Source of the DNA: Naegleria gruberi
Taxonomy: Eukaryota
Strand: one strand, 5' to 3'
Assembly: GCA_000004985.1 (NCBI GenBank)
Contig: GG738898.1
DNA: 64,000 nt
Below are positions 1,874 through 54,945 of this stretch, piece after piece. Numbering within the stretch: position 1 is the stretch's first letter; every line of letters starts with the position of its first letter. A program made the translations under genes and the position numbers. The notes beneath the pieces were generated by a model, which was not told the DNA's origin, did not search any database, and worked only from the letters and a program-made list of their open reading frames with translations.

Positions 1874-2173
1874 GACATGAAAAGGGTAATACATAAATTC
1901 TAATTGTCTGTACATGCCATTCATTAGCCATAATTTCAAAGATGTCATTTGCCAAAGTCCATTCATTCAATAAAACCACTCTTTGAAATCATTTGGAATG
2001 CTCACTGTAGATGTATCCGTTGTGAATCACATATCCCACCCAAAAATCTTCAATACCTTTATAATAATTTTCCAAGATCTCATCCCAATTCTGAATTGTT
2101 TAACATTTTCACTTCTAGAACGAAGCAATTTCTAGCTAATGAACTTGGAAATTGCAAAGAACTTAAAAAAAAA

Positions 2174-4640: not shown

Positions 4641-5088
4641 ATTATTGAAATCTTTGTTTCAGCATCAATTTATTTGGAACGTTTCAACTTGATGCCTTAA
4701 AATATCTATTTATGACATTACACAGTATTTCTAATAGTTGTGAAGAATAACACTCTGGAAAGAAAGAATAATCAAGGAAATCAGAGGAATCAAGCCGAAT
4801 TCTAAACCTTAATTACCCATTGTTGTGGATAGGGTCGTGTTGCCAACTCTATTCGAAACAGCACACACAAATTATTCAATTTATAATTGAAATTTATCCA
4901 TAGATATTTATCAGATCAAATCTGATTACATTGCCGATTAATGGTGGAGAAACCTGAACTATTCAACGAAACTAGTCAATTCAAAGATTATTCTCAATCA
5001 GATCCAAAATTTGCCATTTATCTCTCATGTCAACATTGTGTGATATAATTTCTAACATGTCATTACACTTTGAGATTCGACTTTGAGA

Positions 5089-36192: not shown

Positions 36193-36558
36193 NNNNNNNN
36201 NNNNNNNNNNNNNNNNNNNNNNNNNNNNNNNNNNNNNNNNNNNNNNNNNNNNNNNNNNNNNNNNNNNNNNNNNNNNNNNNNNNNNNNNNNNNNNNNNNNN
36301 NNNNNNNNNNNNNNNNNNNNNNNNNNNNNNNNNNNNNNNNNNNNNNNNNNNNNNNNNNNNNNNNNNNNNNNNNNNNNNNNNNNNNNNNNNNNNNNNNNNN
36401 NNNNNNNNNNNNNNNNNNNNNNNNNNNNNNNNNNNNNNNNNNNNNNNNNNNNNNNNNNNNNNNNNNNNNNNNNNNNNNNNNNNNNNNNNNNNNNNNNNNN
36501 NNNNNNNNNNNNNNNNNNNNNNNNNNNNNNNNNNNNNNNNNNNNNNNNNNNNNNNNNN
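36193..36558. other. assembly gap (366 N)
   Basis: Run of n characters. A 39-bp island at 36559..36597 separates it from the next gap. Confidence 1.
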
Positions 36559-36597: not shown

Positions 36598-36802
36598 NNN
36601 NNNNNNNNNNNNNNNNNNNNNNNNNNNNNNNNNNNNNNNNNNNNNNNNNNNNNNNNNNNNNNNNNNNNNNNNNNNNNNNNNNNNNNNNNNNNNNNNNNNN
36701 NNNNNNNNNNNNNNNNNNNNNNNNNNNNNNNNNNNNNNNNNNNNNNNNNNNNNNNNNNNNNNNNNNNNNNNNNNNNNNNNNNNNNNNNNNNNNNNNNNNN
36801 NN
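36598..36802. other. assembly gap (205 N)
   Basis: Run of n characters. Confidence 1.
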
Positions 36803-41900: not shown

Positions 41901-44900
41901 TCTTGGATCCTGATCTATCATCCAAAAAGCCATACTTAAAGTCAATATTTTCATCTGGATTTTTACAATTGGTACAATAGAAATCAAATTCAGTTTCAAG
42001 TGCAATACCTGTTGATGGATTAATGGAGCAATCACATGGTTTTGGAATGGAAGCCATTGAGAATGCATACGCTGTTCTCACAGTAACACCAGAAGAAGTA
42101 TCTCTTGCTGCAATAGTAAGAGTATTGGTTGAACCCTGCACAAGCAAGGTTGTATCTATGACTCCTGTCACCATTTCTGCAGCACCAACTTGCTGTACTA
42201 TGAATTTAGACTTGTCAAGAATCATTCCATTGAGAACCCATGTGGTTTCTGTGGAGGAAGTTATTTCTGATGAGATTAAAGTTTGAACGGAAAGTTTTTG
42301 CCCAGGAATCAAGTATTGAGTAGTAGGATTAATATCAAGGATATTCACCACAGGTGGAATATTATTAAAGTAAACAATGGTGGACTTTTCCACAATTCTG
42401 TCAGTTTTGGAGACTCTTAATCGAAGTTGAAGTGATGAAGGAACAATCATGCTTCCAAACAGGGCTGAATCAATGGTGAATAGCTTGGCTTTTGTGCTTG
42501 AAATGGATCGAAGCAAACTGAGCAAATCAGGATTGCCACTATCTAAGCAACTCCATGTCCATGTTTCCACTGATTCATAATTGATGGCATCCTCTGGATC
42601 ACTGTATTCCACTTTAATGACTGTATATGTCTTTCTGGATTCTAATTGAACAAGATTTAGATAGAGGTCTGGAGATTTTGTTGTCAATGTCACAGTAGAG
42701 GTTGAGGAGAGTGTTGGATTTGAAGCATAGTAAGCTTTCACTGTGAATGAGTAGCTCACACTTCCAAAAGTTCTCAATCTAGAAATGTACAAATTGTTAA
42801 ACTTGTCTACAGTGAATTCTATGGCAGGCCCTGATGTTTGAGCCCAATCAATTGTAACAGATTCTGATGCACATGTTGACTGAGTAACAACCTTCTTGAT
42901 TGAAGAAGGAAAATCTGTTGTGAGCTTTTCAACCAAGGATGGAGCCATCACTAAAGGAAGAGGTTTCTCAGACTTGACAAATTCCCTCGAATATACATAA
43001 GGACTAATAGTATTCAATGAAGGGCTATGGACCTGAAGCATCATTCTATATCTTCCAGCTGGAAGTGATGCTTCCAACTTGATAATAGCTTGATTGGGAT
43101 AACTATTAGATACAATTTCAAAGGTAGTTGCATCGAGTAAGGACCAATAATAGCTCAATTGCTTTCCATCATTGGAGTGGCTCAGAGTGCCATCTACACT
43201 AATTTCATCACACGAACTAAACATGTCTATATTGGCCATACTAATGAAGGCAGTTGGGGTGTTATTCTGTAAGGGCATGACAACTGGAATGGAAATATAT
43301 TCCTCTCTGGTTGTTAAGTTATTGTATCTATCGTAGACGAGTGTATTCAATTTGATTGATTGACCACTTTCTAATGTATAATCAATTGAACCAAAAGTGA
43401 TCATGAAAGCATAGCTTGCCTTATTCAAATATTTACATTTCACATTAGAGAAGGAACCATAAACATTTCTGGACCTATCTTCTGAACTGATAAGATTCGA
43501 GCACGGAATTTCCACACCAGTAAATGCTGTTGGGAGGTTGAGTTTAAATACTAATCCAGAAAAATCGGAAAGAATAGTGGCAGGTCCTTCAATCTTGGTT
43601 GCACAATTAATTCCATAATAGCCATTCAAACAAGTGTCACATAAGGAGCCATTCCAGAATCCACGTTCAAAACTTGAATAACATTTGCAAGTCAAATCAG
43701 ATTTACATTCTCCATTATTGAAACAATTATTTGCACAAGTACTATTTACAACAGTTGTTGGAGTACTGCTTGAATTATTGCTAGTATTGCTAGTTGCATT
43801 GTTTGAAATCGGTGGAACTATAACCTCGTTACTTGTGTTGTTTGTTGGAGTGGTTGAGTTTTCATTGGGAATGGTAATGTTTGGATGTAATTGTTCTGAA
43901 CAATTAAATCCCAAGTATCCATCCTTACATTTACAAGTGTCAAAATCAGTACACTGACCATTACCAGAACATACTAACTCAGATGTGGATTTAACAGAAA
44001 AGCAAGTTGTGAAATTACAGTTTGGTCCAAAATATGGCAAGTTACAGTCACAATGATTGAAAGATTCACACCTACCACGGGATTGACAAACAAGGGATTC
44101 ATTACTCAATACACCAAAACAACTTGTCACAGAGCAATCACTTCCAAAGCTATTTGGTTCACATTCACAAGTGTCCAAGTCTGAACAAACTCCTCTTTGA
44201 GAACAAACAGTCATATCTAACTTGGATTTACCGTAGCAATAAAAGTGAGAGCAATCTGGGCCAGAGTATCCTTTGTTGCAGACGCACGTATCATGACTTG
44301 TACAACTACCACGGCCAGTACACGTCTCAGAGCTATTGGACGATTTTGAAAAACATGTAGTCAACTCGCAATTCATTCCAAAATAGTTTTCAGCACATTC
44401 ACATTGGTCGAACTCAACACATTTTCCTCTGGAATTACACACAGAAGAGGAATTTGATGGAATATTGTGGCATAGAGGAATTTCACAATTAGATCCAGTA
44501 TATGAAGAATTGCAAGAGCAATGATTTAAGGTGGAACAATTTCCTCTTGAATTGCATACATTTGGATCATGAGAAGAAATTCCAAAACATGTAGTGTACT
44601 GACACCAAGGTCCTGCATACTCTGATGGACAATGGCACTCATCAACCTTTGAGCAATTTCCAACAGAATTACATACTTTGGAAGAGTTTGAGGCAATTCC
44701 AAAACATGTAGCCAACTCGCAATTTCTTCCTGTATACTTTTCATTACATGTACAATTATCTGGTGAATGGCAAGGGCCGTGATAGCTACAAACTGAAGAA
44801 TTACTATCCTTAATACCAAAGCATAGAGAACCAAAGCAATTATCACCATAAGAGCCGTGGTTACAAATACATGTATTCGAATCGGTGCATGAACCATGTC

Positions 44901-47900
44901 CAGAGCAAACACTGGATTGGTTATTCATTACACCAAAGCACTTGTAATTTTCACAATTGGATCCATAATAACCTGATTTACATTCACACAGATTGTAATC
45001 TTTACAAGAACCATGCGCAGAGCAAACATAAGAATCATTAGAAGCAATACCTGCACAATAGCTCTTTTCACAGTTGGTTCCAAAGTAGTGAGCTGAACAA
45101 GAACACTTATCGGCAGAGATACATTGGCCATGAGAGGAACAAACTGAGGAAACATTACTTAAAACTCCATTACATTGTGTTACTTCACAATGCTTGCCAA
45201 AATAATCCTTTAAACATGAGCAAGTCTCAATGTCAATACAAGTGCCCCTTCCTGAACAAACTTTAGTATCGGTACTGAGTGTACCATTGCATTTGAATAG
45301 TTCACATTTGCTTCCTGAGTAACCACTCTTACATGTACAGTTATTGAAATTAGAACAGGTACCATGAGAAGAACAAACTGAAGAGCTATTAGAAAGAGTT
45401 CCATAACATGAAGAAACCTGACAAGTTGAACCATAGTAATTTGCTGAGCAGATACAATTATTGAATGAGCTGCAATAACCATGTGAGTTACAAACACTTG
45501 GAGATGTTGAAAGTTGAGAGCCGCAGGTTGTAATCTCACATCTAGACCCCGAGTAATGATCTTGACACGTGCAAGTGTTTGGGGATGTACAATTTCCATG
45601 TGAGCTACACACAAGAGATGAATTGCCTGTTGTACCATTACATATTGGAATTTCACACCTACTTCCCAATGAATTTGATGAACAAGCACATGTATCAGTA
45701 TCTACACATGTTCCATAACCAGTGCACACTTTTGGAGATGTATTCTTGATGCCAAAACAATAGTGTTCTGAACAATTTTGCCCAAAGTTACCTTGAAGAC
45801 AAGAGCAATTATTAAACTCTCCACAAATTCCCTTTCCAGAACAAACAGAGCTAATGTTTGATAGGAATGAATAGCAAGAAGTAATTTCACATTGACTTCC
45901 CATGTAATTATTCAAACATGAGCATGTATTGAATCCAACACATGTTCCCCTTGATGAACAGACAGATGTATCATTACCAAGTTTTCCGTAACATTTAGAG
46001 ATGGAACAATTATTTCCGTAATAATTATTGGAACAAACACAAGTGTCAATATCCACACATGTTCCTCTTCCAGAGCAAGTCTTGTTCGAATAGTAAGGAA
46101 TGTCGTAGCACTTGTAATCAGAACATGTGCTGCCATAGTAGGTGTGATTACATTGACAATTATTGTAACTAATGCAGGAACCTCTTCCAGAGCATACATA
46201 CTTGCTGTTAGAGAAAACTCCAGAACAAGTAGTCAATTCACACCATTGTCCCAAATAGCCAGTTTTACAAAAACAAGTATCAGGTGCTATGCAACTACCA
46301 TGCGAATTACATACAGTGGTATCATTGGAAAGTGTTCCATTACATTGAACCACACTGCAATCCATTCCAGAATAGCCAATATTACATTTGCAAGTATCAG
46401 GACTAGTGCATGATCCTTGACCACTACAGACAAAGGTAGAATTGGATGAAGAAATTCCATAGCAACTTGTCTCCTCACAATACTCTCCAAAATATCCACT
46501 ATTGCATTCACAAACTTCGTTGGCAATGCATGAACCCCTTCCTGAACAAACAAAAGATTCATTATTACTTAGCATGCCATTGCAAATGTAGAGCGAACAA
46601 TCTGTTCCATAAGCTCCATAATTACACTTACAGCTGTTGTAGTCGATGCATTGTCCATTTCCAGAACATGTACTATTGTCATTGGAGTTGATACCATAGC
46701 ATTTTGTAAAGTTACAGCTGTTGCTTAAATATGGCTCAAATGGATCGAAACTCTTTGGTGGTTCAAATATGACACTCTCTAAAATAACATACGAGTTGAG
46801 AGCCCATATAGATCCAGCAACTGTTCCATGCACGTATAGATAGTCATCCTTGGTGGCTGATATAACAGTACCAGCTATTGGTTTTGTGGAAGAACCCCAC
46901 ACTTGTGATGAAGATCCAACCACCCAGTATAAATTTCTATGTGAGGCACAATTTAAAAAGGTAATACTTGAATTTGCATAATAGAGTGACGGAACCTTAA
47001 TTACTACTGGCTCTGTTCCAATAATAACAATATTTTGAGTTGGTTTTACAAACCAATTTGTTAAAAAACAAAGAACAGCTCCATTTCTAATGATTAGAGT
47101 TGAAGAGACATTGGTTGAGGTTAAGTATTGTGTACATGCCATATTTTGAATGAGATCAATTGATTTTGTCATTTCATCAACAAGCATCTGGCCAATTGGC
47201 TCAGAGGTCAAAACAATTGAAGCATTCTTATTTGGCAAGTACGGGAAGTATGAATATTCTTGTAATTCTAAAACCATACTAGCTGTCAATAACTGATACT
47301 CTCTTCCTATTGAGGAAATGACATGTTTTGAGCAGATCACTTTGTAACCGGCGAATATATCAGTCTTGAGTTTTTCGCAATTTTCACCTCCAAATCTATT
47401 TCCACATTGGCAAGAATTGAAATCAACACATTTTCCATTTCCAGAGCAAACATTGCTATCATTGGATGGGATACCGTGACATGAATTAATTTCACAGAAA
47501 GGACCATCATAATTAAGAAAACATTTGCAAATGTTGTAGTCTGTACAAGTACCATGTGAGCTACAAACTGAGGAAACATTTCCAAGAGTTCCATTACATG
47601 TTGTAATAGAACAATTTAAACCTAATCTGTTAGCTCCACATTGACATGTGTCTGGACTTGTGCATGAGCCATGGCCAGAGCACACTGAACTATTAAAATT
47701 ACTCACTCCAAAACAGTCATAATTGGAGCAATGGTTTCCATAGTATTTGTCTGAGCAGGTGCAATTTTCAAAAGAAGAACATTTTCCATGAGTAGAGCAA
47801 ACCAAAGAATCATTTGAAAAGATGTTTCCACATTTTGTTATATCACACTCCTGTCCATAGTAATGTTCTTCACAAGAACAATTGTTAAATGGCCAACAGA

Positions 47901-50900
47901 TTCCTCTTCTGTGGCATACCTCACTGTGATTGGAGAGAATTCCAAAACACAATGTCATTTGACAGAATTCTCCAAAATAATTTGAGGAACAATTGCACAT
48001 ATCATTAGCTGTACACGATCCATAACCATTGCAAACATTAGTGTCATTACTAAAAGTTCCATTACATTTAGAAATTTCACACTCATATCCAATGTAATGC
48101 TCAAAACAAGAACATGAATCTTTTTGAGAACAATTTCCTCTTCCACTACAAACAAAACTATTATTCATATTACTCACACCAAAGCATTCGAAATATTCAC
48201 ATTCAGAACCCGAATATCCAGGTTGGCAAGAACAATTATTGAAATCATTGCACTGCCCAAATCCCTTACAAACGAGTGAGGAGTTTTGTTGAATACCAAA
48301 GCAGGTTACAAACTCACAATATTTTCCGTAATACCCTTCTTTGCATTGGCATGTTTCTGGTGCAATGCAAGTTCCTCTTTCTCCATGACATTCTCCTATC
48401 GTACCATTACAAAGAGGTATTTCACACTCTGATCCTCCGTAGCCCAAAGTTGAATTGCAAGAACAGTTATTGGATGATATGCATTTACCTCGTTCATTAC
48501 AAACAAGTGGAGAGCTGTATGAATAATTTCCACACACATAGTCAGGCGCAATTTCCAAAATCGTAGTATTGGTACTGTTTGAAGGTTCTGAAATATTAAC
48601 CGAAAATGAACAATTCCCACACAAAGTTTGATTCCAATAAGTTTCATTGAGGGGATTGCTATTATTCGAAACTGTAATGTTTTGCTGCGTATTGGTACTG
48701 TTCATAGTAATGGTTTCATTTGAGAATAGAGTGGAAGAATTTAAAGTATAGTTTTCTGAGGGTGTACTATTGAAACCTAAAGTAGTACTATTGGTTTCCA
48801 CACATGATGAACAATTAGCTGTTGTATTGGAAGAAATACTCTCATTATAGATTGTAGAGTTGGATATTTCTAATGTGCTACTACTGGTTTGATTGTTAGA
48901 GATTTGATTATCAGAATTGTCTTCATGTTTGGTTTGATTGTTAGAATGGCTGGTTTGATTTTCACTTGAGGAGGAAAAATTCGATAGAATATTTGTGGAA
49001 TTATTTGTGAGAGTTTCATTCAAGGTTTGGTTGAATGTTTGAGAATTATCTTCCAATTCTCTTCCAAATTTGTGCGCTGAGTTGTTCAAAGTGCAATTAC
49101 TTCCCACTGGACAGTTTTCTAAAGCTGTCGCATTTTCCAGCAGAGAGCTAGTTGTCTCATTGAGTGATGAGGTATTAAGAGTGGTGGAGTTCTGAGAGAA
49201 TACAGTTCCATTCACTGTGTTATTTGACTGGAAAGAAGTGTTCCACGAAGCAATTTCACTACTGGAATTAGTTGTGCTCTCAAAAGTAGTGTTGAACGTG
49301 AACGTATGATTCGACAGAATTCCAGTGCTGTTCTCCAGACCTGTTTGATTGAAAATAATTGATGAGTTCATGCTGTTATTACAATCGGGAGATGTTACAT
49401 TGAGAGAGGTATTGATCCAAATCGTGCTGTTTCCTCCTTCATACGTATCAGAACTGTTGTAATGTTGAAGGATTGTTCCATTTGAGGTACTAGCATTATA
49501 ATTTTCACTGCTTGTAGTATTTTCCCAAACGGATGAATTGGAAAAGATAGTCGATTCGTTAGAGTAGGAAGTGAAATTCGATTGTGTGCCATTCCCCATG
49601 AACCATTCAGTTGAATTAGTAACAGATGTACTGTTCTTGTCTAAGGTTTCATTTGTACCATAAAGACAAGTATCACATGTGATGTTCAACACTGTGTAAT
49701 TGGAAAAGTTTGAAGAGTTACTAGTCAAACTCTGATTGGTGGCCAATTCGGTGTTGTTAAGACGAACATTTGAAAAATTTCCTGTAGAATTGCTTCCTAC
49801 TTCTAAGGAATTGTTGGTTACATTATTTGTACTGGTAGAATTATCAGAAATGGTGGTATTAGTATTAGTTCCAGTAGAATTATCCGAATCAGTTCCGTTT
49901 GTTTGACCAACAAAGTTAGTTCCATTATTTGATTCAGTAGTATTACTTGAAGAGGTGCCATTTGATGGAGTATTATTAATAGTTGAATTAGTGTTTGTTT
50001 CATTAGTATAAATAGTTCCATTATCCAATTCAGTAGAATTAGAAGAGAAAGGAATGGTTTCATTGAACGAAGTATGTTCGTTTGTAAGATTGTGATTTGT
50101 TATATTACTTTTGGTATTTTCTAACTTGGTTTGATTTACCATATTTGTAGCATTGAGCTGTGTATTGTTTGCTAAATTCGATGAACTATTAAGGGACAAG
50201 CTATTTGTCTCATTTGAAAGGATTGTGGAATTTATGACAGTTTGATTTTCTCCTTGAAATATTTCAGTTACTGTCCCATTATTGAATGGAGAGGTACTAT
50301 TCTCATAACTTTGGTTGTAAAAGCTTTGATTAGTGACAACGGAATAGTTTACAGTGGTGTGATTAAAGTCGTGAGTTATGTTGCCATGTACTACACTACT
50401 GTTGCTCACTGAATTATTCTCAGCCCTTTCAGTTATATTTAACACTGTAGAATTTCCTTCAGATTCACTAACTTTTCCTTTTGTTGGTATTGAATCATTA
50501 AGATTTTCACTGCCATTCTTTGAAATAGGATTACTTGAATTTGTAAGTTCCGTATTGTTTTCTGCTATTAAAGAAGTATTAGAAATACTGTGGTTTGTTT
50601 TTTCATGGTTTGTATTATTCAAAATGGTGCCATTAATTGTTTCATTCAAAGATATAATAGAGCTGTTACTACTTGTAAAGTTATGCATTTCTGTATCATT
50701 AAGCTGAGATCTGGTAATATTATTATAAATAGACTCATTAACAAATGATATCTGTGTTGCATTAAGAGATACAGAATTGTTAGACAATAGAGTATTATTC
50801 TCTTCGGAGTATCTCGTAAAGTTAGCATGGGTTTGATTAAGATTAGTACTATTTATCAGTGTGGAATTATTTTCATTCACTGTTCTATTCAATTCAGAAT

Positions 50901-53900
50901 GGTTATGTGGAGGTGTTTCAGTGCTGTTTTCTACAACTTTGTTTGAACTATTGCTGAATGTTGAATTCCACTGGTCAGTGACATTGAACGAAGTATTTGA
51001 AAGTGGATTTGTTGAATTGAGTAGACTTGAATTTGATACAGTACTTTGGTTGCCAAGGGAGGAGCTGTTCCCAAAGGTTTCTGTTCTGTTTACAAATTCG
51101 TTTGTGTTGTTATCCAAAGAGTTTGATCCTGTTATGTTACAGTTTGTATTATTTAAAGCAGCTGTAGTATTACTATTCTCTGTTGCATTAGCAAATCCGA
51201 AAGTGCCATTAGATAAGGAATTGTTGAAAGTTGCAGTATAACCCAAGTTTAGGGAATTGTTTGAATTTGTATTGGTGATGTTTCCTAATTGTGTACTTTC
51301 TGTGTAATTTAAATCATTCGTAGAATTAGAAGAAGTGAAATTCTGATTTGTACTGTTATTGGTATGTTCATTACTTGTATGGTTTGTTGTTGTGTTATTT
51401 TCCACCAATGAATTATTTAGTGCTGTAGTGTGATTTTGAACAAAAGTCTCATTGTTCAAGGTTTGTGTGTTATTTACACCAAATAAAGTCTCATTATTCC
51501 CTGATTTTCCTTCCAAAGTTTGATTCCTGGTTTCGTTTAAAAAACTTGAATTAGTGATAGCAGTATTATTTTCCAATACTGAAGATTGATTGTGTAACTT
51601 TGTGTTATTCTCAAATAGAGTGGTATTAATTGTCTGAGAATCGTCGATCATAGACGTTGCGTTAGTGTTAATTGTGAGATTCTCATTATTAACTGTAGAG
51701 TTTGTTTCAATACTGGGTACAGATGAGCTATTCTGATTCTCAGTTTGGTTGTACCTACTATGAAGAGACTCGTTCCCTATCATTGTTTTGTTTTCATTTA
51801 TCAGGGTGTCATTATTTACAAGAATTGTAGAACTAATAGATCCATTGAGGTACGTATCATTGAGTTGAAAGGTAGATTCATTAAGGAAGTTTAGACTTGA
51901 ATTCAAATTTGTATAGTTCACAGATATTGAAAGTGTTTGATTTTGTGATTTGATATTGACAAAAATGGAACTGTCATTCCTCAGAGTTTCGTTCAATGTT
52001 ACATTACCAACTGTGGTGACTTTGGTAGAATTTTCTGAAGAATTTCCATTCAAGAAACCGGTTTGGTTACTTATTGCCGTTCCATTTTCGGCAGGCATTG
52101 TTTGCTTTTCGAAAGTTGTAGTGTTGTTTTCAGCAAAACTATTATTTTCGGGCCTTGTGGTATTTTGAGTGGAAACTGTAATAGACATATTGCTAGAAAT
52201 TTCTCTGGTGATGTTGGAGTTTGTCATATTAGGATTAGTATTTGCCAAGTTATTAACCACTGAGCCGTTTTCCTGCAACGTTTGATTTCTTGTTTCCAAG
52301 CTGTCATCAGATCTAGATGTCGAGTTACTAGCAATACTGGTATTTGTTATTGAAATAGTTGTGACATTACTTTGTTCAGTGTTGTTCCAATTGGTTGAGT
52401 TCATTGTTTTGTTGCTTTCAAGGTTTTCTAGTGTTAAGTTCTTTGAAGACGTTTCATTAAGAAAAACGGTTTTGTTTGTAATAGTATCTTGTGAAGAATT
52501 ACCTCCGTTAGTATTATTGCTAGTGGTGATATTGAAAGATTCTGTGCGATTGATAAATAAATCAGAAGTGTTGTTTAGCACAAGCAATGAACTGTTAAGG
52601 TTAGTGGAGTTCTCAAGTGTTATGGTTGAATTGATTGAGATTGTTGAATCATCCAAAACAAACTGGTTTGTATTATTCAAATCTGTTGAATTACTTGTTT
52701 CATTCACCAATAATACGGAGGTATTAGAATAGCTATTGGAGAGTGTGTTATTCTCAATAGCATCAGTTGTATTTAAGCCTGTTGAATTCACAATTGATAA
52801 ACCTGATTCGTTAGAATGGTTTGAATAGTTATCAAACTTTGAGCTGTTGCTCCCGGTTAATGAAAAGTTGGCTACATCATTAAAAGTTGAATTATTAACA
52901 AGACCATGTGATTGACCCGAGGGACCGCTAATTGTTTGGTTTTCTGGGAAATGACTAGTGTTGAGCCTTGTTGTATAATTTGAATCAAGAGTGTTATTAG
53001 AAATAATGTCTGAACTAGCATTATTGGAAATTCTTGTACTATTCCCAGTGGTCATGGTACAGTTATTTGAATCATTAGAAGTAATATTTGAAACAGTACT
53101 ATTTGAAATTGTTGAATTGTTCACTGTTTCATTTCCTTGCTTAGTAGCTATGGTTGCATTCAAATCAACAGAGGAGTTGGATGGAACACTTGGAATATTA
53201 GATTCGTTTGAAAAATTTGTAATATTATCAAACCTAGAGCTGTTTCTCCCATTCAAAGTTGAGTTTGTAAGGTTATTAAATGTTGAATTCTCGAATGTCG
53301 ATAGGTTACTCCCACTCAGTGACGAGTTGGTAACATCTTTTAAGGTTGAATTATTAACTGAAGTAATGTTGGTTTCATTCTCAATACCAAATGATTGATT
53401 TGAGGGACTACCACTATTTGATAATGTTTGGTTTTCGGAGCTATAACTCGTGTTCACACTAGTTGCATTTTTTGAATCAACAGTGTTATTATTAGTCATG
53501 TTTGAACTAGTATTAGATAGTATTGTATTGTTAAAAGTTTCATTTCCTTTTTGTATAACAGTTGAATTCAATTCTAAAGTAGTATAGTATATACTTGTAT
53601 CATTTTGTTCAATAGATGAATTATTTGATAAGACGGTCTCATTTAGAATAACAGATCGATTATTCCAAGTACTGTCACTTGCATTTGTTTCATTTAGTGT
53701 GACAGTTACGTTATATGTCAGACTTGTATTGAAACTGGTCTCATTCTTAATTTGTCCATAAGAATTGTTCATTGAGGATGTTTCATTTGGATGAATTAAA
53801 GTCTCATTAACATTTACATCTGATTGGTTTGATGCTGTGTAAGTACTATTCCTTCCTGGACCAGTAGAGTTATTGAAAGTCGTCTCGTTGTTAGATGTTG

Positions 53901-54945
53901 AATTGTTTGATGTCAATTCACTTTCGTTGAATGTTGTATTTGAAGATGATCCAGTATCGTTTTGTCCATTACTGCTAACATTTAAACTTGTTTGGTTTGT
54001 TAAAGAAGTATTGGAATACATAGAAGAGTTGGAAACTGGTTCGTTAGTAAAGGGTGTATGTTGATCGGTTGCATTGTCCAGTAATGTCGAGTTATTAACG
54101 ACGTACGAGGTAGTATTGCTCTCAAAATAGGATGTATTGCTCTCTACATTTAGCTCCGTAGTGCCATTACTGACTTGTGAATCAGTTGTTTGGTTATCTT
54201 CTCTAAATATTCCAGTACTATTTGTTGAACTAGTATTATTTACAAGACTACTATTATCGCTAGAAATAGTAGCATTATCAAAACTAAAGTTCTTGGCGGA
54301 TGAGGTATTAACTGCCTCTGTGATTGTGGAAGTATTACATGCCAAACCGGTGTATCCATCTGTACAATTGCAAGTATTAAAATCAACACAGGTTCCATAT
54401 CCACTGCAAGTTGATGAGCTGTTCGATTCCACATCAAAACAGTATGTATATTGACAATGTGTTCCAAAGAACTGTTCCTCACATGTACATGACGACGTTT
54501 CATTACTGAGCCAAGAACAGTTACCATGTCCTGAACATGTGATCATGGTACTGTTATTATACTCACTTTCATTCCATGTCTTGGCTATCGAAGAACACTC
54601 CACATACTCGCACTCTTCTCCATAAAATCCCAACTGGCATTCACATTCAGTGTCATTTGTACAATTTCCTCGTCCAGAGCATATATTTATGCTAAGATTA
54701 TCATCAGTGAATAGCCTTAATTTGCAACTGTTGTGTCCCGATGATGATGTAGCAATTACTTTCGATAAAATTGCTCTCTGAATTATTAAGCATTGTATCA
54801 CCAATATTATCATGATCATAATATTTGTTATTGTTGTTATTCGCGTTTTCCATTTTACTCGCCTCCACACTTTGAATTTCTCATCCAAAAAGGTTGCTCC
54901 TTCACACGTATGATGATGAGAGTGAAGATGAACACGAATCGGCAT
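38995..54945 (-). CDS. giant single-pass surface protein (~5,300 aa): signal sequence, 3-4 EGF, ~1,500-aa N-glycan-sequon stalk, two arrays of tenascin-type EGF repeats (>55), REJ/GAIN-like region with GPS motif, TM helix, long cytoplasmic tail (3' end uncertain because of gap)
   Basis: Single ~16-kb open frame with no candidate introns. In-frame ATGs lie at 54945 and 54819 (MIMIILVIQCLIIQRAILS, signal-peptide-like). EGF consensus C.G.G.C....C.C...Y.G..C recurs from ~49600 to ~43900. The GPS-like motif is ...YSCSLQLKNDTHAYCKCSHFTNVFVIQ at ~40545..40600. TM helix YMYVAAAVFSAAIVCGLSCMFLLLFLVCFF at ~40440..40530 is followed by RKRNTKNSK stop-transfer. The tail runs into gap 39035..39545. Confidence 0.85.
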   Translation of the reverse strand: MPIRVHLHSHHHTCEGATFLDEKFKVWRRVKWKTRITTITNIMIMIILVIQCLIIQRAILSKVIATSSSGHNSCKLRLFTDDNLSINICSGRGNCTNDTECECQLGFYGEECEYVECSSIAKTWNESEYNNSTMITCSGHGNCSWLSNETSSCTCEEQFFGTHCQYTYCFDVESNSSSTCSGYGTCVDFNTCNCTDGYTGLACNTSTITEAVNTSSAKNFSFDNATISSDNSSLVNNTSSTNSTGIFREDNQTTDSQVSNGTTELNVESNTSYFESNTTSYVVNNSTLLDNATDQHTPFTNEPVSNSSMYSNTSLTNQTSLNVSSNGQNDTGSSSNTTFNESELTSNNSTSNNETTFNNSTGPGRNSTYTASNQSDVNVNETLIHPNETSSMNNSYGQIKNETSFNTSLTYNVTVTLNETNASDSTWNNRSVILNETVLSNNSSIEQNDTSIYYTTLELNSTVIQKGNETFNNTILSNTSSNMTNNNTVDSKNATSVNTSYSSENQTLSNSGSPSNQSFGIENETNITSVNNSTLKDVTNSSLSGSNLSTFENSTFNNLTNSTLNGRNSSRFDNITNFSNESNIPSVPSNSSVDLNATIATKQGNETVNNSTISNSTVSNITSNDSNNCTMTTGNSTRISNNASSDIISNNTLDSNYTTRLNTSHFPENQTISGPSGQSHGLVNNSTFNDVANFSLTGSNSSKFDNYSNHSNESGLSIVNSTGLNTTDAIENNTLSNSYSNTSVLLVNETSNSTDLNNTNQFVLDDSTISINSTITLENSTNLNSSLLVLNNTSDLFINRTESFNITTSNNTNGGNSSQDTITNKTVFLNETSSKNLTLENLESNKTMNSTNWNNTEQSNVTTISITNTSIASNSTSRSDDSLETRNQTLQENGSVVNNLANTNPNMTNSNITREISSNMSITVSTQNTTRPENNSFAENNTTTFEKQTMPAENGTAISNQTGFLNGNSSENSTKVTTVGNVTLNETLRNDSSIFVNIKSQNQTLSISVNYTNLNSSLNFLNESTFQLNDTYLNGSISSTILVNNDTLINENKTMIGNESLHSRYNQTENQNSSSVPSIETNSTVNNENLTINTNATSMIDDSQTINTTLFENNTKLHNQSSVLENNTAITNSSFLNETRNQTLEGKSGNNETLFGVNNTQTLNNETFVQNHTTALNNSLVENNTTTNHTSNEHTNNSTNQNFTSSNSTNDLNYTESTQLGNITNTNSNNSLNLGYTATFNNSLSNGTFGFANATENSNTTAALNNTNCNITGSNSLDNNTNEFVNRTETFGNSSSLGNQSTVSNSSLLNSTNPLSNTSFNVTDQWNSTFSNSSNKVVENSTETPPHNHSELNRTVNENNSTLINSTNLNQTHANFTRYSEENNTLLSNNSVSLNATQISFVNESIYNNITRSQLNDTEMHNFTSSNSSIISLNETINGTILNNTNHEKTNHSISNTSLIAENNTELTNSSNPISKNGSENLNDSIPTKGKVSESEGNSTVLNITERAENNSVSNSSVVHGNITHDFNHTTVNYSVVTNQSFYNQSYENSTSPFNNGTVTEIFQGENQTVINSTILSNETNSLSLNSSSNLANNTQLNATNMVNQTKLENTKSNITNHNLTNEHTSFNETIPFSSNSTELDNGTIYTNETNTNSTINNTPSNGTSSSNTTESNNGTNFVGQTNGTDSDNSTGTNTNTTISDNSTSTNNVTNNSLEVGSNSTGNFSNVRLNNTELATNQSLTSNSSNFSNYTVLNITCDTCLYGTNETLDKNSTSVTNSTEWFMGNGTQSNFTSYSNESTIFSNSSVWENTTSSENYNASTSNGTILQHYNSSDTYEGGNSTIWINTSLNVTSPDCNNSMNSSIIFNQTGLENSTGILSNHTFTFNTTFESTTNSSSEIASWNTSFQSNNTVNGTVFSQNSTTLNTSSLNETTSSLLENATALENCPVGSNCTLNNSAHKFGRELEDNSQTFNQTLNETLTNNSTNILSNFSSSSENQTSHSNNQTKHEDNSDNQISNNQTSSSTLEISNSTIYNESISSNTTANCSSCVETNSTTLGFNSTPSENYTLNSSTLFSNETITMNSTNTQQNITVSNNSNPLNETYWNQTLCGNCSFSVNISEPSNSTNTTILEIAPDYVCGNYSYSSPLVCNERGKCISSNNCSCNSTLGYGGSECEIPLCNGTIGECHGERGTCIAPETCQCKEGYYGKYCEFVTCFGIQQNSSLVCKGFGQCNDFNNCSCQPGYSGSECEYFECFGVSNMNNSFVCSGRGNCSQKDSCSCFEHYIGYECEISKCNGTFSNDTNVCNGYGSCTANDMCNCSSNYFGEFCQMTLCFGILSNHSEVCHRRGICWPFNNCSCEEHYYGQECDITKCGNIFSNDSLVCSTHGKCSSFENCTCSDKYYGNHCSNYDCFGVSNFNSSVCSGHGSCTSPDTCQCGANRLGLNCSITTCNGTLGNVSSVCSSHGTCTDYNICKCFLNYDGPFCEINSCHGIPSNDSNVCSGNGKCVDFNSCQCGNRFGGENCEKLKTDIFAGYKVICSKHVISSIGREYQLLTASMVLELQEYSYFPYLPNKNASIVLTSEPIGQMLVDEMTKSIDLIQNMACTQYLTSTNVSSTLIIRNGAVLCFLTNWFVKPTQNIVIIGTEPVVIKVPSLYYANSSITFLNCASHRNLYWVVGSSSQVWGSSTKPIAGTVISATKDDYLYVHGTVAGSIWALNSYVILESVIFEPPKSFDPFEPYLSNSCNFTKCYGINSNDNSTCSGNGQCIDYNSCKCNYGAYGTDCSLYICNGMLSNNESFVCSGRGSCIANEVCECNSGYFGEYCEETSCYGISSSNSTFVCSGQGSCTSPDTCKCNIGYSGMDCSVVQCNGTLSNDTTVCNSHGSCIAPDTCFCKTGYLGQWCELTTCSGVFSNSKYVCSGRGSCISYNNCQCNHTYYGSTCSDYKCYDIPYYSNKTCSGRGTCVDIDTCVCSNNYYGNNCSISKCYGKLGNDTSVCSSRGTCVGFNTCSCLNNYMGSQCEITSCYSFLSNISSVCSGKGICGEFNNCSCLQGNFGQNCSEHYCFGIKNTSPKVCTGYGTCVDTDTCACSSNSLGSRCEIPICNGTTGNSSLVCSSHGNCTSPNTCTCQDHYSGSRCEITTCGSQLSTSPSVCNSHGYCSSFNNCICSANYYGSTCQVSSCYGTLSNSSSVCSSHGTCSNFNNCTCKSGYSGSKCELFKCNGTLSTDTKVCSGRGTCIDIETCSCLKDYFGKHCEVTQCNGVLSNVSSVCSSHGQCISADKCSCSAHYFGTNCEKSYCAGIASNDSYVCSAHGSCKDYNLCECKSGYYGSNCENYKCFGVMNNQSSVCSGHGSCTDSNTCICNHGSYGDNCFGSLCFGIKDSNSSVCSYHGPCHSPDNCTCNEKYTGRNCELATCFGIASNSSKVCNSVGNCSKVDECHCPSEYAGPWCQYTTCFGISSHDPNVCNSRGNCSTLNHCSCNSSYTGSNCEIPLCHNIPSNSSSVCNSRGKCVEFDQCECAENYFGMNCELTTCFSKSSNSSETCTGRGSCTSHDTCVCNKGYSGPDCSHFYCYGKSKLDMTVCSQRGVCSDLDTCECEPNSFGSDCSVTSCFGVLSNESLVCQSRGRCESFNHCDCNLPYFGPNCNFTTCFSVKSTSELVCSGNGQCTDFDTCKCKDGYLGFNCSEQLHPNITIPNENSTTPTNNTSNEVIVPPISNNATSNTSNNSSSTPTTVVNSTCANNCFNNGECKSDLTCKCYSSFERGFWNGSLCDTCLNGYYGINCATKIEGPATILSDFSGLVFKLNLPTAFTGVEIPCSNLISSEDRSRNVYGSFSNVKCKYLNKASYAFMITFGSIDYTLESGQSIKLNTLVYDRYNNLTTREEYISIPVVMPLQNNTPTAFISMANIDMFSSCDEISVDGTLSHSNDGKQLSYYWSLLDATTFEIVSNSYPNQAIIKLEASLPAGRYRMMLQVHSPSLNTISPYVYSREFVKSEKPLPLVMAPSLVEKLTTDFPSSIKKVVTQSTCASESVTIDWAQTSGPAIEFTVDKFNNLYISRLRTFGSVSYSFTVKAYYASNPTLSSTSTVTLTTKSPDLYLNLVQLESRKTYTVIKVEYSDPEDAINYESVETWTWSCLDSGNPDLLSLLRSISSTKAKLFTIDSALFGSMIVPSSLQLRLRVSKTDRIVEKSTIVYFNNIPPVVNILDINPTTQYLIPGQKLSVQTLISSEITSSTETTWVLNGMILDKSKFIVQQVGAAEMVTGVIDTTLLVQGSTNTLTIAARDTSSGVTVRTAYAFSMASIPKPCDCSINPSTGIALETEFDFYCTNCKNPDENIDFKYGFLDDRSGSKIYLYNLGEVFASKLPAPFYGDTVTCFFEIINTVTGGTTLMEKNITISKPTVTDIEQVQEIVSTWSGVSATYMSEGHFSKSIYQSASTSRTDSVLLKETLGDLSFKRSINERSTKYLQCISGVEVSGECKCADGYIGTHCETSIRDFSNIQKSKLTVLNDITTSMNKTDGLNEDYISLLSFAVDSILVNYHFLNSKTISEALCTLNRFLTTAQDSGKIKLSPGVQNLLNACVESVHDYIMERQYITDQTSNSRKLLSALKMSSNLQTRDMYISRTITRTKGPFFSMIMGKSTIYDYENIITDSERSTSVLIPDNFFVFENKVSSLVKKPFTYVMTVTDDVFSLDRKLKLSQKLSASTTRTSSLISPIVSVEFTDLSVPMKEDGLIYIIPINTTSTLTSSTASSFDFTEETDSYACADFLDGTTEVTYSCSLQLKNDTHAYCKCSHFTNVFVIQTATVSHYSYMYVAAAVFSAAIVCGLSCMFLLLFLVCFFMRKRNTKNSKNKHGSTNPKEGSGPVRPIRPRPIPKLLRHLSYVTHDDLKPQKIKLPSKKHYGDESEIAVPSHEDIEGNFYIPRKEYNPDQEIPSTPTRPTEEEDKRPSTANSVISIKELNLDLIKKNSVVPQQVVDSIDLIDHHVIQPSSSIYSQSSTKPSTPATSRSLKYSINSILPINSKVNLESLNAQDCISERPATTATTATTTTTTYNISNLFEKQSSTRTLKVDGTMQQATGIPTTFVANVKRAWEGEEQIPQTPQVEDDSHHKPIISSADVELHMEHHHYENPVPIHTXXXXXXXXXXXXXXXXXXXXXXXXXXXXXXXXXXXXXXXXXXXXXXXXXXXXXXXXXXXXXXXXXXXXXXXXXXXXXXXXXXXXXXXXXXXXXXXXXXXXXXXXXXXXXXXXXXXXXXXXXXXXXXXXXXXXXXXXXXXXXXXXXXXXXXXXXXXXXXXXXXXXXXXXXXXIIYTFLEGEFNI
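39035..39545. other. assembly gap (511 N) in cytoplasmic-tail region of giant gene
   Basis: Run of n characters, flanked upstream by a Thr-rich low-complexity tract (TTATTATTTTTTY). Confidence 1.
43900..49600 (-). repeat. two tandem arrays of tenascin-type EGF-like repeat units (~31-33 aa each) inside giant gene, separated by a ~230-aa non-repeat insert (~46700..47390)
   Basis: The same 6-Cys unit recurs: CxGxxSNxSxVCSGxGxCxxxxxCxCxxxYxGxxC. Confidence 0.7.
49650..54300 (-). repeat. low-complexity coding tract: Asn/Ser/Thr-rich stalk saturated with N-x-S/T sequons (inside giant gene)
   Basis: About 4.6 kb in which nearly every 4-6 codons forms N-x-S/T (e.g. NTSSTNSTGIFREDNQTTDSQVSNGTTELNVESNTSYFESNTTSYVVNNSTLLDNAT...). 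Codons are dominated by AAT/ACT/AGT/TCA. Confidence 0.7.

What the first reader, a model, noticed from the sequence alone, without database searches (positions are those of the whole stretch)
49650..54300. ~4.6-kb coding tract that is essentially a continuous array of N-glycosylation sequons
About 1,500 residues are almost entirely Asn/Ser/Thr, with N-x-S/T recurring every ~5 residues. That is potentially hundreds of N-glycans forming a mucin-like stalk that would hold the EGF/REJ ectodomain far from the membrane. Being imperfectly repetitive, it is also likely to vary in length between strains.
Basis: seen in the sequence. Interest (0 to 1): 0.5.

Follow-up and report, generated by a model that had tools for sequence, protein, structure and literature searches.

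The report
Giant N-glycan sequon array, Naegleria surface protein
A 1,934-residue stretch carrying 304 evenly spaced N-glycosylation motifs forms the outer part of a giant surface protein of the amoeba Naegleria gruberi. The protein appears to be missing from public protein sets, and the stretch most likely works as a sugar-coated, mucin-like brush built from N-linked rather than O-linked sites.

Summary
On the minus strand, one intronless ORF (38995-54945, at least 5,133 codons before an assembly gap) contains a 1,934-aa tract at window 48535-54336. The tract has 304 N-x-S/T sequons, against about 138 expected from its composition (z about 20).

- **Pattern:** NxT outnumbers NxS 2:1, and spacing is regular (mode 6 residues). 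The enrichment stops at the REJ module and the cytoplasmic tail.
- **Organism:** Naegleria gruberi, which has the full N-glycosylation machinery according to the literature.
- **Architecture:** signal peptide, 3 EGF, sequon tract, about 35 EGF with an ice-binding-like beta-solenoid domain, REJ, GPS-like motif, one TM, tail.
- **Position of the tract:** it is distal to the membrane.
- **Repetitiveness:** it is not a tandem repeat. I found only one old duplication, so slippage-driven length polymorphism is not predicted.
- **Family:** at least 8 N. gruberi paralogues carry shorter tracts (74-512 aa), the six analysed showing the same grammar. It is therefore a recurrent, length-labile family module.
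- **Annotation:** the gene itself was not found in public protein sets.

Glycosylation and function are inferred, not shown. I rate it a new variant of a known kind, of moderate interest.

The parts
38995..54945 (-). Giant intronless ORF of 5,316 codons as read. Only residues 1-5133 are real sequence, because the 3' end runs through an assembly gap. Predicted type I membrane protein with about 558 kDa of peptide before the gap.
   Evidence: Kyte-Doolittle scan finds only two hydrophobic segments, at residues 39-65 and 4809-4838.
54751..54831 (-). N-terminal hydrophobic segment (residues 39-65, ITNIMIMIILVIQCLIIQRAILSKVIA). Probably a signal peptide if translation starts at Met43 or Met45. An uncleaved signal anchor is not excluded.
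   Evidence: Paralogues with complete N-termini have classical signal peptides.
   Evidence: Pfam EGF_2 8.6e-14 and EGF_Teneurin 1.8e-11. Cys count.
48535..54336 (-). Sequon tract, residues 204-2137. It has 304 NxS/T (198 NxT, 106 NxS), modal spacing of 6, and a loose hexad N-x-T-h-h-x. Pro is 1.4%, pI is 4.2, and the peptide mass is 209 kDa.
   Evidence: No Pfam family. AF2 single-sequence mean pLDDT 36.7.
52829..53515 (-). The only detectable internal duplication, covering about 125-150 aa (residues roughly 460-600 against 625-760). 14 of 22 sequons are conserved in position.
47326..48534 (-). EGF array 1, about 10 teneurin/tenascin-type EGF repeats (residues 2138-2540).
   Evidence: Pfam EGF_2, EGF_TEN and EGF_Teneurin. 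61 Cys.
46711..47358 (-). Non-EGF insert (residues about 2530-2745) with an ice-binding-protein/DUF3494-like beta-solenoid fold and a flanking helix. It is a family domain, present 5 times in paralogue D2VPE3.
   Evidence: Weak Pfam Ice_binding hit, 6.8e-4. Paralogue copies. AF2 on an 8-sequence alignment gives pLDDT 85. The Foldseek PDB top 31 hits are all ice-binding proteins, TM up to 0.70.
43846..46620 (-). EGF array 2, about 24 EGF repeats (residues 2776-3700).
43738..43893 (-). Short sequon- and Pro/Thr-rich linker (residues 3685-3736) just before the REJ-homology region. The paralogues carry their long sequon tracts at this position.
41719..42786 (-). REJ domain (residues 4054-4409).
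   Evidence: Pfam PF02010, E 2.4e-18, 66.4 bits against a cutoff of 25.
40555..40584 (-). GPS-like motif CKCSHFTNVF (residues 4788-4797), 12 residues before the TM helix. It has H-F-T where the canonical site is H-L-T.
   Evidence: phmmer against PDB matches ADGRL3 GPS plus TM1 at E 7e-4. Distant family members have the canonical CxCxHLTxF.
40432..40521 (-). Single transmembrane helix (residues 4809-4838), followed by MRKRNTKNSKNK, which fits the positive-inside rule.
39547..40431 (-). Cytoplasmic Ser/Thr/Pro-rich tail, at least 295 aa. It holds only 1 sequon. Its end is lost in the gap.
39035..39545 (.). Assembly gap of 511 N that interrupts the 3' end of the ORF. The true C-terminus and stop codon are unknown.

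Best explanation
The tract is a translated, extracellular, non-globular segment of a giant type I membrane glycoprotein of Naegleria gruberi.

**Architecture.** Signal peptide, 3 EGF, 1,934-aa sequon tract, about 10 EGF, an ice-binding-like beta-solenoid, about 24 EGF, REJ, GPS-like motif, one TM helix, cytoplasmic tail.

**What the sequence has been selected for.** The selection is for N-glycosylation acceptor sites as such. The tract follows a loose hexapeptide grammar, N-x-T/S-hydrophobic-hydrophobic-x, with a site about every 6 residues. NxT is favoured, and there are no N-P-S/T motifs.

**Proposed mechanism (inferred).**
- During co-translational translocation the OST scans the chain and adds a glycan at most of the ~300 sites.
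- That would add roughly 0.4-0.6 MDa of carbohydrate to 0.21 MDa of peptide.
- Steric crowding would force the chain into an extended bottle-brush several hundred nm long.
- The brush would form the outermost layer of the cell coat and carry the small EGF cap at its tip.
- It would act like a membrane-tethered mucin: a hydrated barrier, an adhesion regulator or a glycan-presentation surface.
- The juxtamembrane REJ/GPS module may allow cleavage or shedding.

**Shown.** Coding status, sequon excess and regularity, domain order and topology logic, recurrence in paralogues, organism.

**Inferred.** Actual occupancy, extended shape, surface location, function, GPS cleavage.
For: - **Coding status.** The tract's frame has 0 stops in 1,934 codons, against 63-278 in the other frames. 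N/S/T codon usage is mixed, so it is not a simple DNA repeat.
- **Sequon excess.** 304 observed against 138 +/- 8.5 expected, with out-of-register controls at background.
- **NxT bias.** NxT:NxS is 198:106 although Ser outnumbers Thr. OST prefers NXT, and closely spaced NXT sites are glycosylated better than NXS sites (PMC6761772).
- **Regular spacing.** CV 0.40, against at least 0.54 in 1,000 shuffles. There are no gaps longer than 18 residues.
- **Topology-specific enrichment.** The tract has 15.7 sequons per 100 aa and the EGF arrays 4-7. REJ-GPS has 0.6 and the cytoplasmic tail 0.3. Lumen-specific sequon selection is the known pattern (PMC5562741).
- **Conservation in the duplication.** In the one internal duplication, sequon columns are 73% conserved against 34% elsewhere. 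The alignment is partly driven by N/S/T matches, so this is biased.
- **Recurrence in paralogues.** At least eight N. gruberi paralogues carry tracts of 74-512 aa; in the six analysed in detail there are 14-17 sequons per 100 aa, a median spacing of 6, hydrophobics at +3/+4/-2, Pro 0-3%, and NxT exceeds NxS in all eight. These tracts are not alignable to this one.
- **No fold detected.** No Pfam family and AF2 mean pLDDT 36.7.
- **Organism and machinery.** The window is N. gruberi. That species has the Alg1-14, Stt3, Ost1/2/3, Wbp1 and Swp1 genes (PMC4973528 Table 1).
- **Domain context.** Pfam EGF and REJ hits, a single TM helix, and a GPS-like motif.
Against: - There is no expression, protein or glycan evidence. 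The gene is not in public protein sets.
- 22% hydrophobic residues with almost no proline is atypical for a disordered mucin domain. It leaves room for some regular secondary structure.
- The AF2 result is single-sequence and therefore weak.
- OST efficiency at about 300 consecutive sites is unknown. Yeast OST handles closely spaced sites less well than metazoan STT3A.
- The N-terminal hydrophobic segment could be an uncleaved anchor, which would change the geometry.
- The C-terminus is lost in a gap.
Confidence: 0.6

Rival explanations
1. The tract is a folded, regular beta-rich structure, such as a solenoid or fibre with Asn/Thr ladders. The N-x-T-h-h-x hexads would be structural, and glycosylation would be sparse or secondary.
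For: - Hydrophobics are enriched at fixed offsets from the sequon Asn: +3, +4, -2 and -3 at 0.31-0.40, against 0.22 overall.
- Pro is very low.
- AF2 draws scattered short strands.
- The same protein contains a genuine beta-solenoid domain, the IBP-like insert.
Against: - There is no long-range phase coherence. Autocorrelation of hydrophobic or Asn positions is at most 0.11 at lag 6 and decays by lags 12-18.
- Sequon spacing varies from 1 to 18 residues.
- There is no Pfam hit, including hexapeptide or LRR families.
- AF2 pLDDT is 36.7, whereas the real solenoid insert reaches 85.
- The NxT over NxS bias and the register specificity point to OST recognition.
Confidence: 0.12
2. The tract is essentially a Ser/Thr-rich, O-glycosylated or phosphoglycosylated mucin-type domain, and the sequons contribute little to its function.
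For: S+T make up 34% of residues. Mucin-like O-glycosylated stalks are the usual solution in EGF-TM7 receptors and membrane mucins (general knowledge).
Against: - The strongest signal is the Asn-x-Ser/Thr register, not S/T abundance. 74% of Asn residues are in sequons, at z = 20.
- S/T runs are short, at most 5 residues.
- Pro is 1.4%, unlike PTS domains.
- The two modifications are not mutually exclusive.
Confidence: 0.1
3. The tract is neutral low-complexity sequence produced by AT-biased mutation and slippage, like the Asn-rich tracts of Dictyostelium and Plasmodium. It would carry no selection related to glycans.
For: The genome is AT-rich, with window GC 0.24-0.38. Asn is 21% of the tract.
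Against: - The longest Asn run is 3 residues.
- Lys, Ile, Tyr and Phe are not inflated. Lys is 1.3%.
- The sequon register is enriched 2.2-fold over composition while shifted registers are not.
- Spacing is regular.
- Codon usage is mixed and there are no DNA tandem repeats.
- The same grammar recurs in at least six paralogues without alignable similarity.
Confidence: 0.04
4. The tract is a membrane-proximal stalk that lifts the EGF/REJ ectodomain off the membrane.
For: - In paralogues the shorter tracts lie between the EGF array and the REJ module.
- If the N-terminal hydrophobic segment were an uncleaved anchor, the tract would begin about 140 residues from a membrane anchor.
Against: - In this protein REJ, the GPS-like motif and the TM helix are contiguous at residues 4054-4838, and the tract is at 204-2137.
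- Family N-termini look like cleavable signal peptides.
Confidence: 0.04

Closest known systems
Naegleria gruberi EGF-REJ-TM paralogue family. All members are annotated 'predicted protein', for example D2W3J2/NAEGRDRAFT_75960, D2VD89/NAEGRDRAFT_48552, D2VYQ4, D2VPE3 (4,968 aa), D2V6Z6 and D2VH84.
   Same: - The REJ-to-TM region is 41-46% identical over about 1,000 aa, with E from 0 to 1e-208.
- They share EGF arrays and IBP-like domains.
- At least eight members carry sequon-dense tracts; the six analysed in detail have 14-17 sites per 100 aa and a median spacing of 6, and NxT exceeds NxS in all eight.
   Different: - Their tracts are 74-512 aa and sit directly N-terminal of REJ. Here the tract is 1,934 aa, about 4 times the longest, and sits near the N-terminus. 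Only a 52-aa linker occupies the family position.
- This gene itself was not found in the protein databases.
Membrane-tethered mucins (MUC1, MUC4, MUC16)
   Same: - A giant type I membrane glycoprotein.
- A huge distal glycan-bearing, non-globular domain.
- Folded modules, including EGF in MUC4, and an autoproteolytic module next to the membrane (SEA there, GPS-like here).
- The expected bottle-brush physics is the same.

This comparison rests on general knowledge.
   Different: - The glycan acceptor is the N-linked sequon, not O-GalNAc on PTS repeats.
- Pro is 1.4%.
- There are no tandem repeats or VNTR.
- There is no sequence homology.
Chlamydomonas FMG1B/FMG1A ciliary glycocalyx protein, described as an N-glycosylated 'mucin orthologue' (bioRxiv 10.1101/2024.09.28.615573)
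   Same: A protist protein of more than 4,500 aa that is membrane-anchored and carries N-glycans rather than O-glycans. It is proposed to form a protective, adhesion-regulating coat.
   Different: - FMG1B is built of 34 folded beta-rich repeats, with 25 confirmed glycosites in about 4,545 aa.
- Here there are 304 sequons in 1,934 aa with no detectable fold.
- There is no homology.
Polycystin-1, sea-urchin REJ and PKDREJ proteins
   Same: A REJ module followed by a juxtamembrane GPS motif and a TM helix (PMC4810088).
   Different: - One TM helix, not 11.
- No PLAT, PKD, LRR or C-lectin domains were detected.
- The motif is H-F-T instead of H-L-T.
- Those proteins have no sequon array.
EGF-TM7 adhesion GPCRs (CD97/ADGRE5, EMR2/ADGRE2)
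   Same: N-terminal EGF repeats, a glycosylated Ser/Thr-rich spacer and a GPS next to the membrane. This order matches the paralogues in particular (general knowledge).
   Different: - No 7TM domain. There is a single TM helix.
- The spacer is N-sequon based and 10-50 times longer.
- In this protein the spacer lies distal to most of the EGF repeats.
Asn-rich low-complexity regions of Dictyostelium and Plasmodium
   Same: A high Asn content in an AT-rich protist genome.
   Different: There are no poly-Asn runs (maximum 3). Asn is locked into the N-x-S/T register, and the tract is extracellular.

Membership tests
Mucin / mucin-domain glycoprotein (PTS tandem-repeat type) | A long domain rich in Pro, Thr and Ser | tested here: not met
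   S+T are 34% but Pro is only 1.4%. Asn, at 21%, is the commonest residue.
Mucin / mucin-domain glycoprotein (PTS tandem-repeat type) | Tandem repeat (VNTR) organisation | tested here: not met
   TRF finds only arrays of up to 35 nt. Self-BLAST and the repeat finder find one diverged duplication.
Mucin / mucin-domain glycoprotein (PTS tandem-repeat type) | Dense O-linked glycosylation | not testable with these tools
   This needs glycoproteomics or lectin and enzyme assays.
Mucin / mucin-domain glycoprotein (PTS tandem-repeat type) | Secreted or type I membrane protein with the glyco-domain outside the cell | tested here: met
   There is an N-terminal hydrophobic signal and a single C-terminal TM helix with positive charges after it. 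The tract lies between them. This is a prediction only.
REJ-module proteins (polycystin-1 / suREJ / PKDREJ) | REJ domain (Pfam PF02010) above the gathering score | tested here: met
   66.4 bits against a cutoff of 25, E 2.4e-18, residues 4054-4409.
REJ-module proteins (polycystin-1 / suREJ / PKDREJ) | Juxtamembrane GPS motif with Cys pairs and an H-L-T/S cleavage tripeptide | tested here: inconclusive
   The motif CKCSHFTNVF lies 12 residues before the TM helix. ADGRL3 GPS plus TM1 matches at E 7e-4. No Pfam GPS hit at E <= 0.01. Leu is replaced by Phe, and cleavage was not tested.
REJ-module proteins (polycystin-1 / suREJ / PKDREJ) | PLAT domain and an 11-TM polycystin channel-like region (PKD1 type) | tested here: not met
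   There is one TM segment. Pfam finds no PLAT or PKD_channel domain. The C-terminus beyond residue 5133 is unknown because of the gap.
Adhesion GPCR (EGF-TM7) | Seven-transmembrane domain after the GPS | tested here: not met
   There is a single hydrophobic segment after the GPS-like motif, followed by a hydrophilic tail of at least 295 aa.
N. gruberi EGF-REJ-TM paralogue family | Homology across the REJ-to-TM region | tested here: met
   Exhaustive phmmer gives 24 hits at E < 1e-30. The top hits are 41-46% identical over about 1,000 aa and are all N. gruberi.
N. gruberi EGF-REJ-TM paralogue family | Sequon-dense tract with the shared grammar: about 15 per 100 aa, spacing about 6, NxT exceeding NxS | tested here: met
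Asn-rich low-complexity / prion-like regions | Homopolymeric or near-homopolymeric Asn runs with no register constraint | tested here: not met
   The longest Asn run is 3. The sequon register is enriched specifically.
Hexapeptide-repeat left-handed beta-helix | Strict 6-residue periodicity of aliphatic residues, plus a Pfam Hexapep match | tested here: not met
   Autocorrelation at lags 6, 12 and 18 is at most 0.07 for hydrophobic residues. No Pfam hit. AF2 pLDDT is 36.7.

The most novel reading that the evidence does not exclude
This is a previously undescribed type of glyco-domain, an 'N-linked mucin'. It is non-repetitive but obeys a grammar: N-x-T-hydrophobic-hydrophobic-x, about one site per 6 residues.

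- At 304 sites over 1,934 residues it may be among the longest and densest natural N-glycosylation arrays. I could not check that ranking against a database.
- It would have evolved and expanded within a Naegleria-specific family of EGF/REJ/GPS surface proteins.
- It sits in a gene missing from the reference annotation.
- It would form a brush about 0.5 um long, possibly high-mannose, on the amoeba surface.
- Its function could be adhesion control or capture of mannose-binding (for example FimH-bearing) prey bacteria. This last point is pure speculation.
Probability: 0.3. Interest if true: 0.7.

Novelty: new variant of a known kind. Interest (0 to 1): 0.45.

Why it matters
If most sites are occupied, this would be a natural polypeptide with a glycan roughly every 2 nm over hundreds of nm. 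Mucin-like cell coats would then have evolved independently using the N-linked pathway, in a lineage very far from animals.

- **OST processivity.** It would be a stringent natural substrate for asking how OST copes with about 300 consecutive sites, and which flanking residues make sequons efficient. The conserved hydrophobics at -2, +3 and +4 are candidates.
- **Naegleria cell surface.** It gives a concrete molecular candidate for the Naegleria surface coat. This matters for adhesion, phagocytosis and comparison with the pathogen N. fowleri, whose relatives of this family are highly divergent. The closest relative identified outside N. gruberi, from N. lovaniensis, is 27% identical.
- **Annotation.** It flags a gene of at least 16 kb that seems absent from the reference proteome, and a whole paralogue family annotated only as 'predicted protein'.

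Tried and rejected
- **Word-indexed protein searches.** Three searches found nothing, not even the protein itself: the REJ/tail part, the tract and the IBP-like insert. The third had only 130 candidates and shows the gene product is not in the collection.
- **Metagenome scan for orthologues.** It returned one weak locus, L001, at 21% identity. That gives no allele or orthologue, so length polymorphism could not be tested.
- **AF2 on tract residues 400-700.** No confident structure, pLDDT 36.7. I use this only as weak support for a non-globular segment.
- **Tandem and direct repeat searches and self-BLAST.** These reject the 'repeat array' description. One search returned only the self-hit and was redone in chunks.
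- **Left-handed beta-helix or LRR idea for the hexad grammar.** Rejected on autocorrelation and Pfam.
- **AT-bias low-complexity explanation.** Rejected.
- **Literature searches.**
  - Naegleria with REJ, GPS or polycystin: nothing relevant.
  - Naegleria N-glycans, surface glycoproteins or ConA agglutination: nothing specific.
  - One hit, PMC11964265, matched 'eGFP' rather than EGF.
- **Intron hypothesis for the tract.** Rejected because the frame has 0 stops, against 63-278 in the other frames.
Full report
**Source and gene.** The window is AT-rich (GC 0.24-0.38) and contains six runs of N, so it is a scaffold. One ORF, 6058-8052(-), is identical to N. gruberi EFC39664.1 / NAEGRDRAFT_72607. 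The window is therefore Naegleria gruberi NEG-M. Neighbouring ORFs are typical eukaryotic genes: PAS-adenylate cyclase, Ku80, F-box, LRR, a DOCK-like protein and APH + acyl-CoA dehydrogenase. The finding lies on the minus strand inside a single ORF, 38995..54945, read as 5,316 codons. Only residues 1-5133 are real sequence, because a 511-N gap (39035-39545) interrupts the 3' end.

**Checking the observation.** I delimited the tract by the last Cys of the N-terminal EGFs (C203) and the first Cys of the next EGF array (C2138). That gives residues 204-2137, window 48535-54336.
- The tract holds 304 N-x(not P)-S/T sequons, or 15.7 per 100 aa.
- 2,000 residue shuffles give 138 +/- 8.5 (maximum 169), so z is about 19.5.
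- Shifted registers are at background: [ST]xN 126, N[ST] 150, Nxx[ST] 117.
- 74% of Asn residues are in a sequon.
- NxT outnumbers NxS 198:106, although Ser (341) exceeds Thr (315).
- A density-based detector gives a similar extent: residues 172-2170, 309 sequons.

'Almost entirely N/S/T' is overstated. N+S+T are 55%, hydrophobics 22%, D+E 8.5% and Pro 1.4%.

Spacing has a mean of 6.3 and a mode of 6, and is under-dispersed. The CV is 0.40, against 0.64 when sequon tokens are shuffled (minimum 0.54 in 1,000). 62% of gaps are 5-7 residues against 31% expected, and the longest gap is 18.

The coding frame has no stop in 1,934 codons, while the other five frames have 63-278. Codon usage for N/S/T is mixed. 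The tract is thus under coding constraint and is not an intron or a simple DNA repeat.

**Not a repeat array.** TRF finds only trivial arrays of up to 35 nt. The repeat finder finds only 70-79% identical remnants of one roughly 400-490-bp duplication, 52829-53023 against 53225-53515. Chunked self-BLAST with composition correction finds that single duplication (E 2e-8) and nothing else. The uncorrected scores are only modestly above those of shuffled chunks. Within the duplication, 14 of 22 sequons keep their position. Sequon columns are 73% conserved against 34% elsewhere. The alignment is partly driven by N/S/T matches, so this is a biased comparison.

**Architecture and topology.**
- Pfam finds EGF_2/EGF_Teneurin in residues 74-203, and massive EGF arrays in 2138-3700 (E 7e-113).
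- Pfam finds a REJ domain at 4054-4409 (66 bits against a cutoff of 25).
- Pfam finds nothing in the tract.
- Hydropathy shows only two hydrophobic segments, at residues 39-65 and 4809-4838. The second is followed by MRKRNTKNSKNK.
- Twelve residues before the TM helix lies CKCSHFTNVF. This resembles the GPS consensus CxCxHLTxF, which the distant family members carry in canonical form.
- phmmer against PDB aligns this stretch to the GPS plus TM1 of ADGRL3 at E 7e-4.
- In polycystin-1 a REJ module is likewise followed by a juxtamembrane GPS that is cleaved at HL*T (PMC4810088).
- Paralogues with complete N-termini have ordinary signal peptides.

The most likely topology is type I. The order is signal peptide, 3 EGF, tract, about 10 EGF, insert, about 24 EGF, a 52-aa sequon/Pro linker, REJ, GPS-like motif, TM and a tail of at least 295 aa.

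The sequon excess follows this topology. The tract has 15.7 per 100 aa (z 20) and the EGF regions 4-7 (z 4-5.5). REJ-GPS has 0.6 (z -2) and the tail 0.3. Lumen-restricted sequon selection is the known signature of real N-glycosylation (PMC5562741).

The tract is consequently the distal part of the ectodomain. About 2,670 residues of folded domains lie between it and the membrane.

**The family.** An exhaustive phmmer of residues 3760-4860 against 1.84 billion representatives gave 60 hits, 24 of them below 1e-30.
- Thirteen of the twenty hits looked up are N. gruberi 'predicted proteins', including the nine best, which are 41-46% identical over about 1,000 aa.
- N. lovaniensis reaches only 27% identity.
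- Weaker hits come from Stygiella, Trimastix and metagenomic eukaryotes.
- Eight paralogues carry sequon-dense tracts of 74-512 aa, always directly N-terminal of the REJ homology.
- The six tracts analysed in detail share one grammar: 14-17 sequons per 100 aa, a median spacing of 6, hydrophobics enriched at +3/+4/-2 and Pro 0-3%; NxT exceeds NxS in all eight (for example 42:2 in D2VYQ4).
- The tracts are not significantly alignable to this one.

The module is therefore recurrent, evolves fast and varies greatly in length between paralogues. The present copy is about 4 times the longest other copy and sits at a different position.

**The gene appears unannotated.** No hit of 50% identity or better exists for the REJ region. 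A search with the non-repetitive insert domain had only 130 candidates, so it was not capped, and it did not recover the protein itself. The N. gruberi proteome is in that collection.

**Is the tract folded?** AF2 on residues 400-700 (single sequence) gives a mean pLDDT of 36.7. The non-EGF insert of the same protein (residues about 2530-2745) was modelled with 7 paralogous copies and reaches pLDDT 85. It matches only ice-binding-protein/DUF3494 beta-solenoids in the PDB (31 hits, TM up to 0.70). Autocorrelation of hydrophobic or Asn positions is weak (at most 0.11) and loses phase by lags 12-18. That argues against a hexapeptide beta-helix. A partly ordered, beta-rich structure cannot be excluded, given 22% hydrophobics and almost no proline.

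**Mechanism (inferred).**
- N. gruberi encodes Alg1-14, Rft1, Stt3, Ost1/2/3, Wbp1 and Swp1 (PMC4973528 Table 1).
- OST prefers NXT. Adjacent NXT sites can both be modified, whereas NXS sites need at least 2 intervening residues (PMC6761772).
- The typical layout here has 3 residues between sequons, NxT favoured and no N-P-S/T. That is what one would design for maximal occupancy.
- If most sites are used, about 300 glycans of 1.2-1.9 kDa would add 0.4-0.6 MDa to a 209-kDa peptide.
- By analogy with mucin bottle-brushes at about 0.25 nm per residue (general knowledge), this would give a rod-like segment roughly 0.4-0.5 um long.
- The segment would project beyond the EGF/REJ base and carry a 3-EGF cap.
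- The likely role is that of a membrane-tethered mucin: a hydrated barrier, adhesion regulation or glycan display. Shedding or mechanosensing through the REJ/GPS module is possible.

None of this is shown experimentally.

**Comparison with known systems.** The tract works like a mucin domain but fails the defining features of PTS/VNTR mucins (Pro content and tandem repeats).
- The membrane-proximal part meets the REJ criterion and has a GPS-like motif, but it is neither PKD1-like (one TM helix, no PLAT) nor an adhesion GPCR.
- The nearest functional precedent in a protist is Chlamydomonas FMG1B, called an N-glycosylated mucin orthologue. It is built from folded repeats, with 25 confirmed sites in about 4,545 aa.
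- The tract is unlike the poly-Asn low-complexity regions of Dictyostelium and Plasmodium. The longest Asn run is 3 and the enrichment is register-specific.

**Verdict.**
- I rate it a new variant of a known kind: a mucin-like glyco-domain built from a non-repetitive, evenly spaced N-sequon grammar. It sits in an apparently unannotated member of a Naegleria-specific EGF/REJ/GPS family.
- Interest is moderate (0.45). The feature is striking in scale and could be tested directly, but every functional statement is inference.

Noticed in passing
window 38995-54945 (-): The giant ORF does not seem to be represented in public protein collections. There is no hit of 50% identity or better for its REJ region among 1.84 billion representatives. 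The word-indexed database gave no self-hit for the insert domain, although the N. gruberi proteome is included. It is probably a missed gene model, perhaps because of its size and the gap.
   Followed up: partly
window 46711-47358 (-), ORF residues about 2530-2745: A roughly 215-aa non-EGF domain sits between the two EGF arrays. It folds (AF2 pLDDT 85) as an ice-binding-protein/DUF3494-like beta-solenoid with a flanking helix. It is present 5 times in paralogue D2VPE3 and also occurs in D2VQD7, D2W408 and D2W3J2. Its function in a mesophilic amoeba is unknown; it may be an adhesin-like surface.
   Followed up: yes
window 40555-40584 (-): A GPS-like motif, CKCSHFTNVF, has Phe in place of the canonical Leu of the HL^T cleavage tripeptide. 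The close N. gruberi paralogues did not match the regular expression C.C.H[LFIMV][ST] at all. Distant homologues (Stygiella, Trimastix, metagenomic) have the canonical CxCxHLTxF. Autoproteolysis may have been lost or altered in the Naegleria expansion.
   Followed up: partly
window 39035-39545, also 5207-5408, 21634-22266, 36193-36558, 36598-36802 and 62851-62900: Six assembly gaps (runs of N). The one at 39035-39545 cuts the 3' end of the giant ORF. Its length of 511 is not a multiple of 3, so the C-terminus and stop codon as read are artefactual.
   Followed up: partly
window 55565-58121 (-): Two adjacent ORFs, APH phosphotransferase (56550-58121) and the acyl-CoA dehydrogenase middle and C-terminal domains (55565-56497), are separated by about 50 bp. 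They look like one ACAD10/11-type fusion gene split by a short intron.
   Followed up: no
window 6055-8052 (-): A PAS-PAS-adenylate/guanylate cyclase, identical to NAEGRDRAFT_72607. This protein identified the organism.
   Followed up: yes
window 23440-25629 (-), 58268-62146 (-), 18336-19868 (+): A Ku80-like protein, a DOCK (DHR-2) protein fragment and a MutY/EndoIII-NUDIX glycosylase ORF. The exact ORF translations tested (Ku, F-box, LRR) were not in the protein collection, which suggests the published gene models differ in start or introns.
   Followed up: no
ORF residues 3685-3736 (window 43738-43893): A short Pro/Thr/Asn linker with about 8 sequons lies exactly where the paralogues carry their long sequon tracts. 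The family-typical tract position is therefore nearly empty here, while a much larger tract exists at a new, N-terminal position.
   Followed up: partly
L001 (metagenome contig Ga0256407_10008617) 9208-10638: This was the only metagenomic locus recovered with the REJ-TM query. It is a weak relative (21% identity, E 9e-6), presumably from another eukaryote.
   Followed up: no
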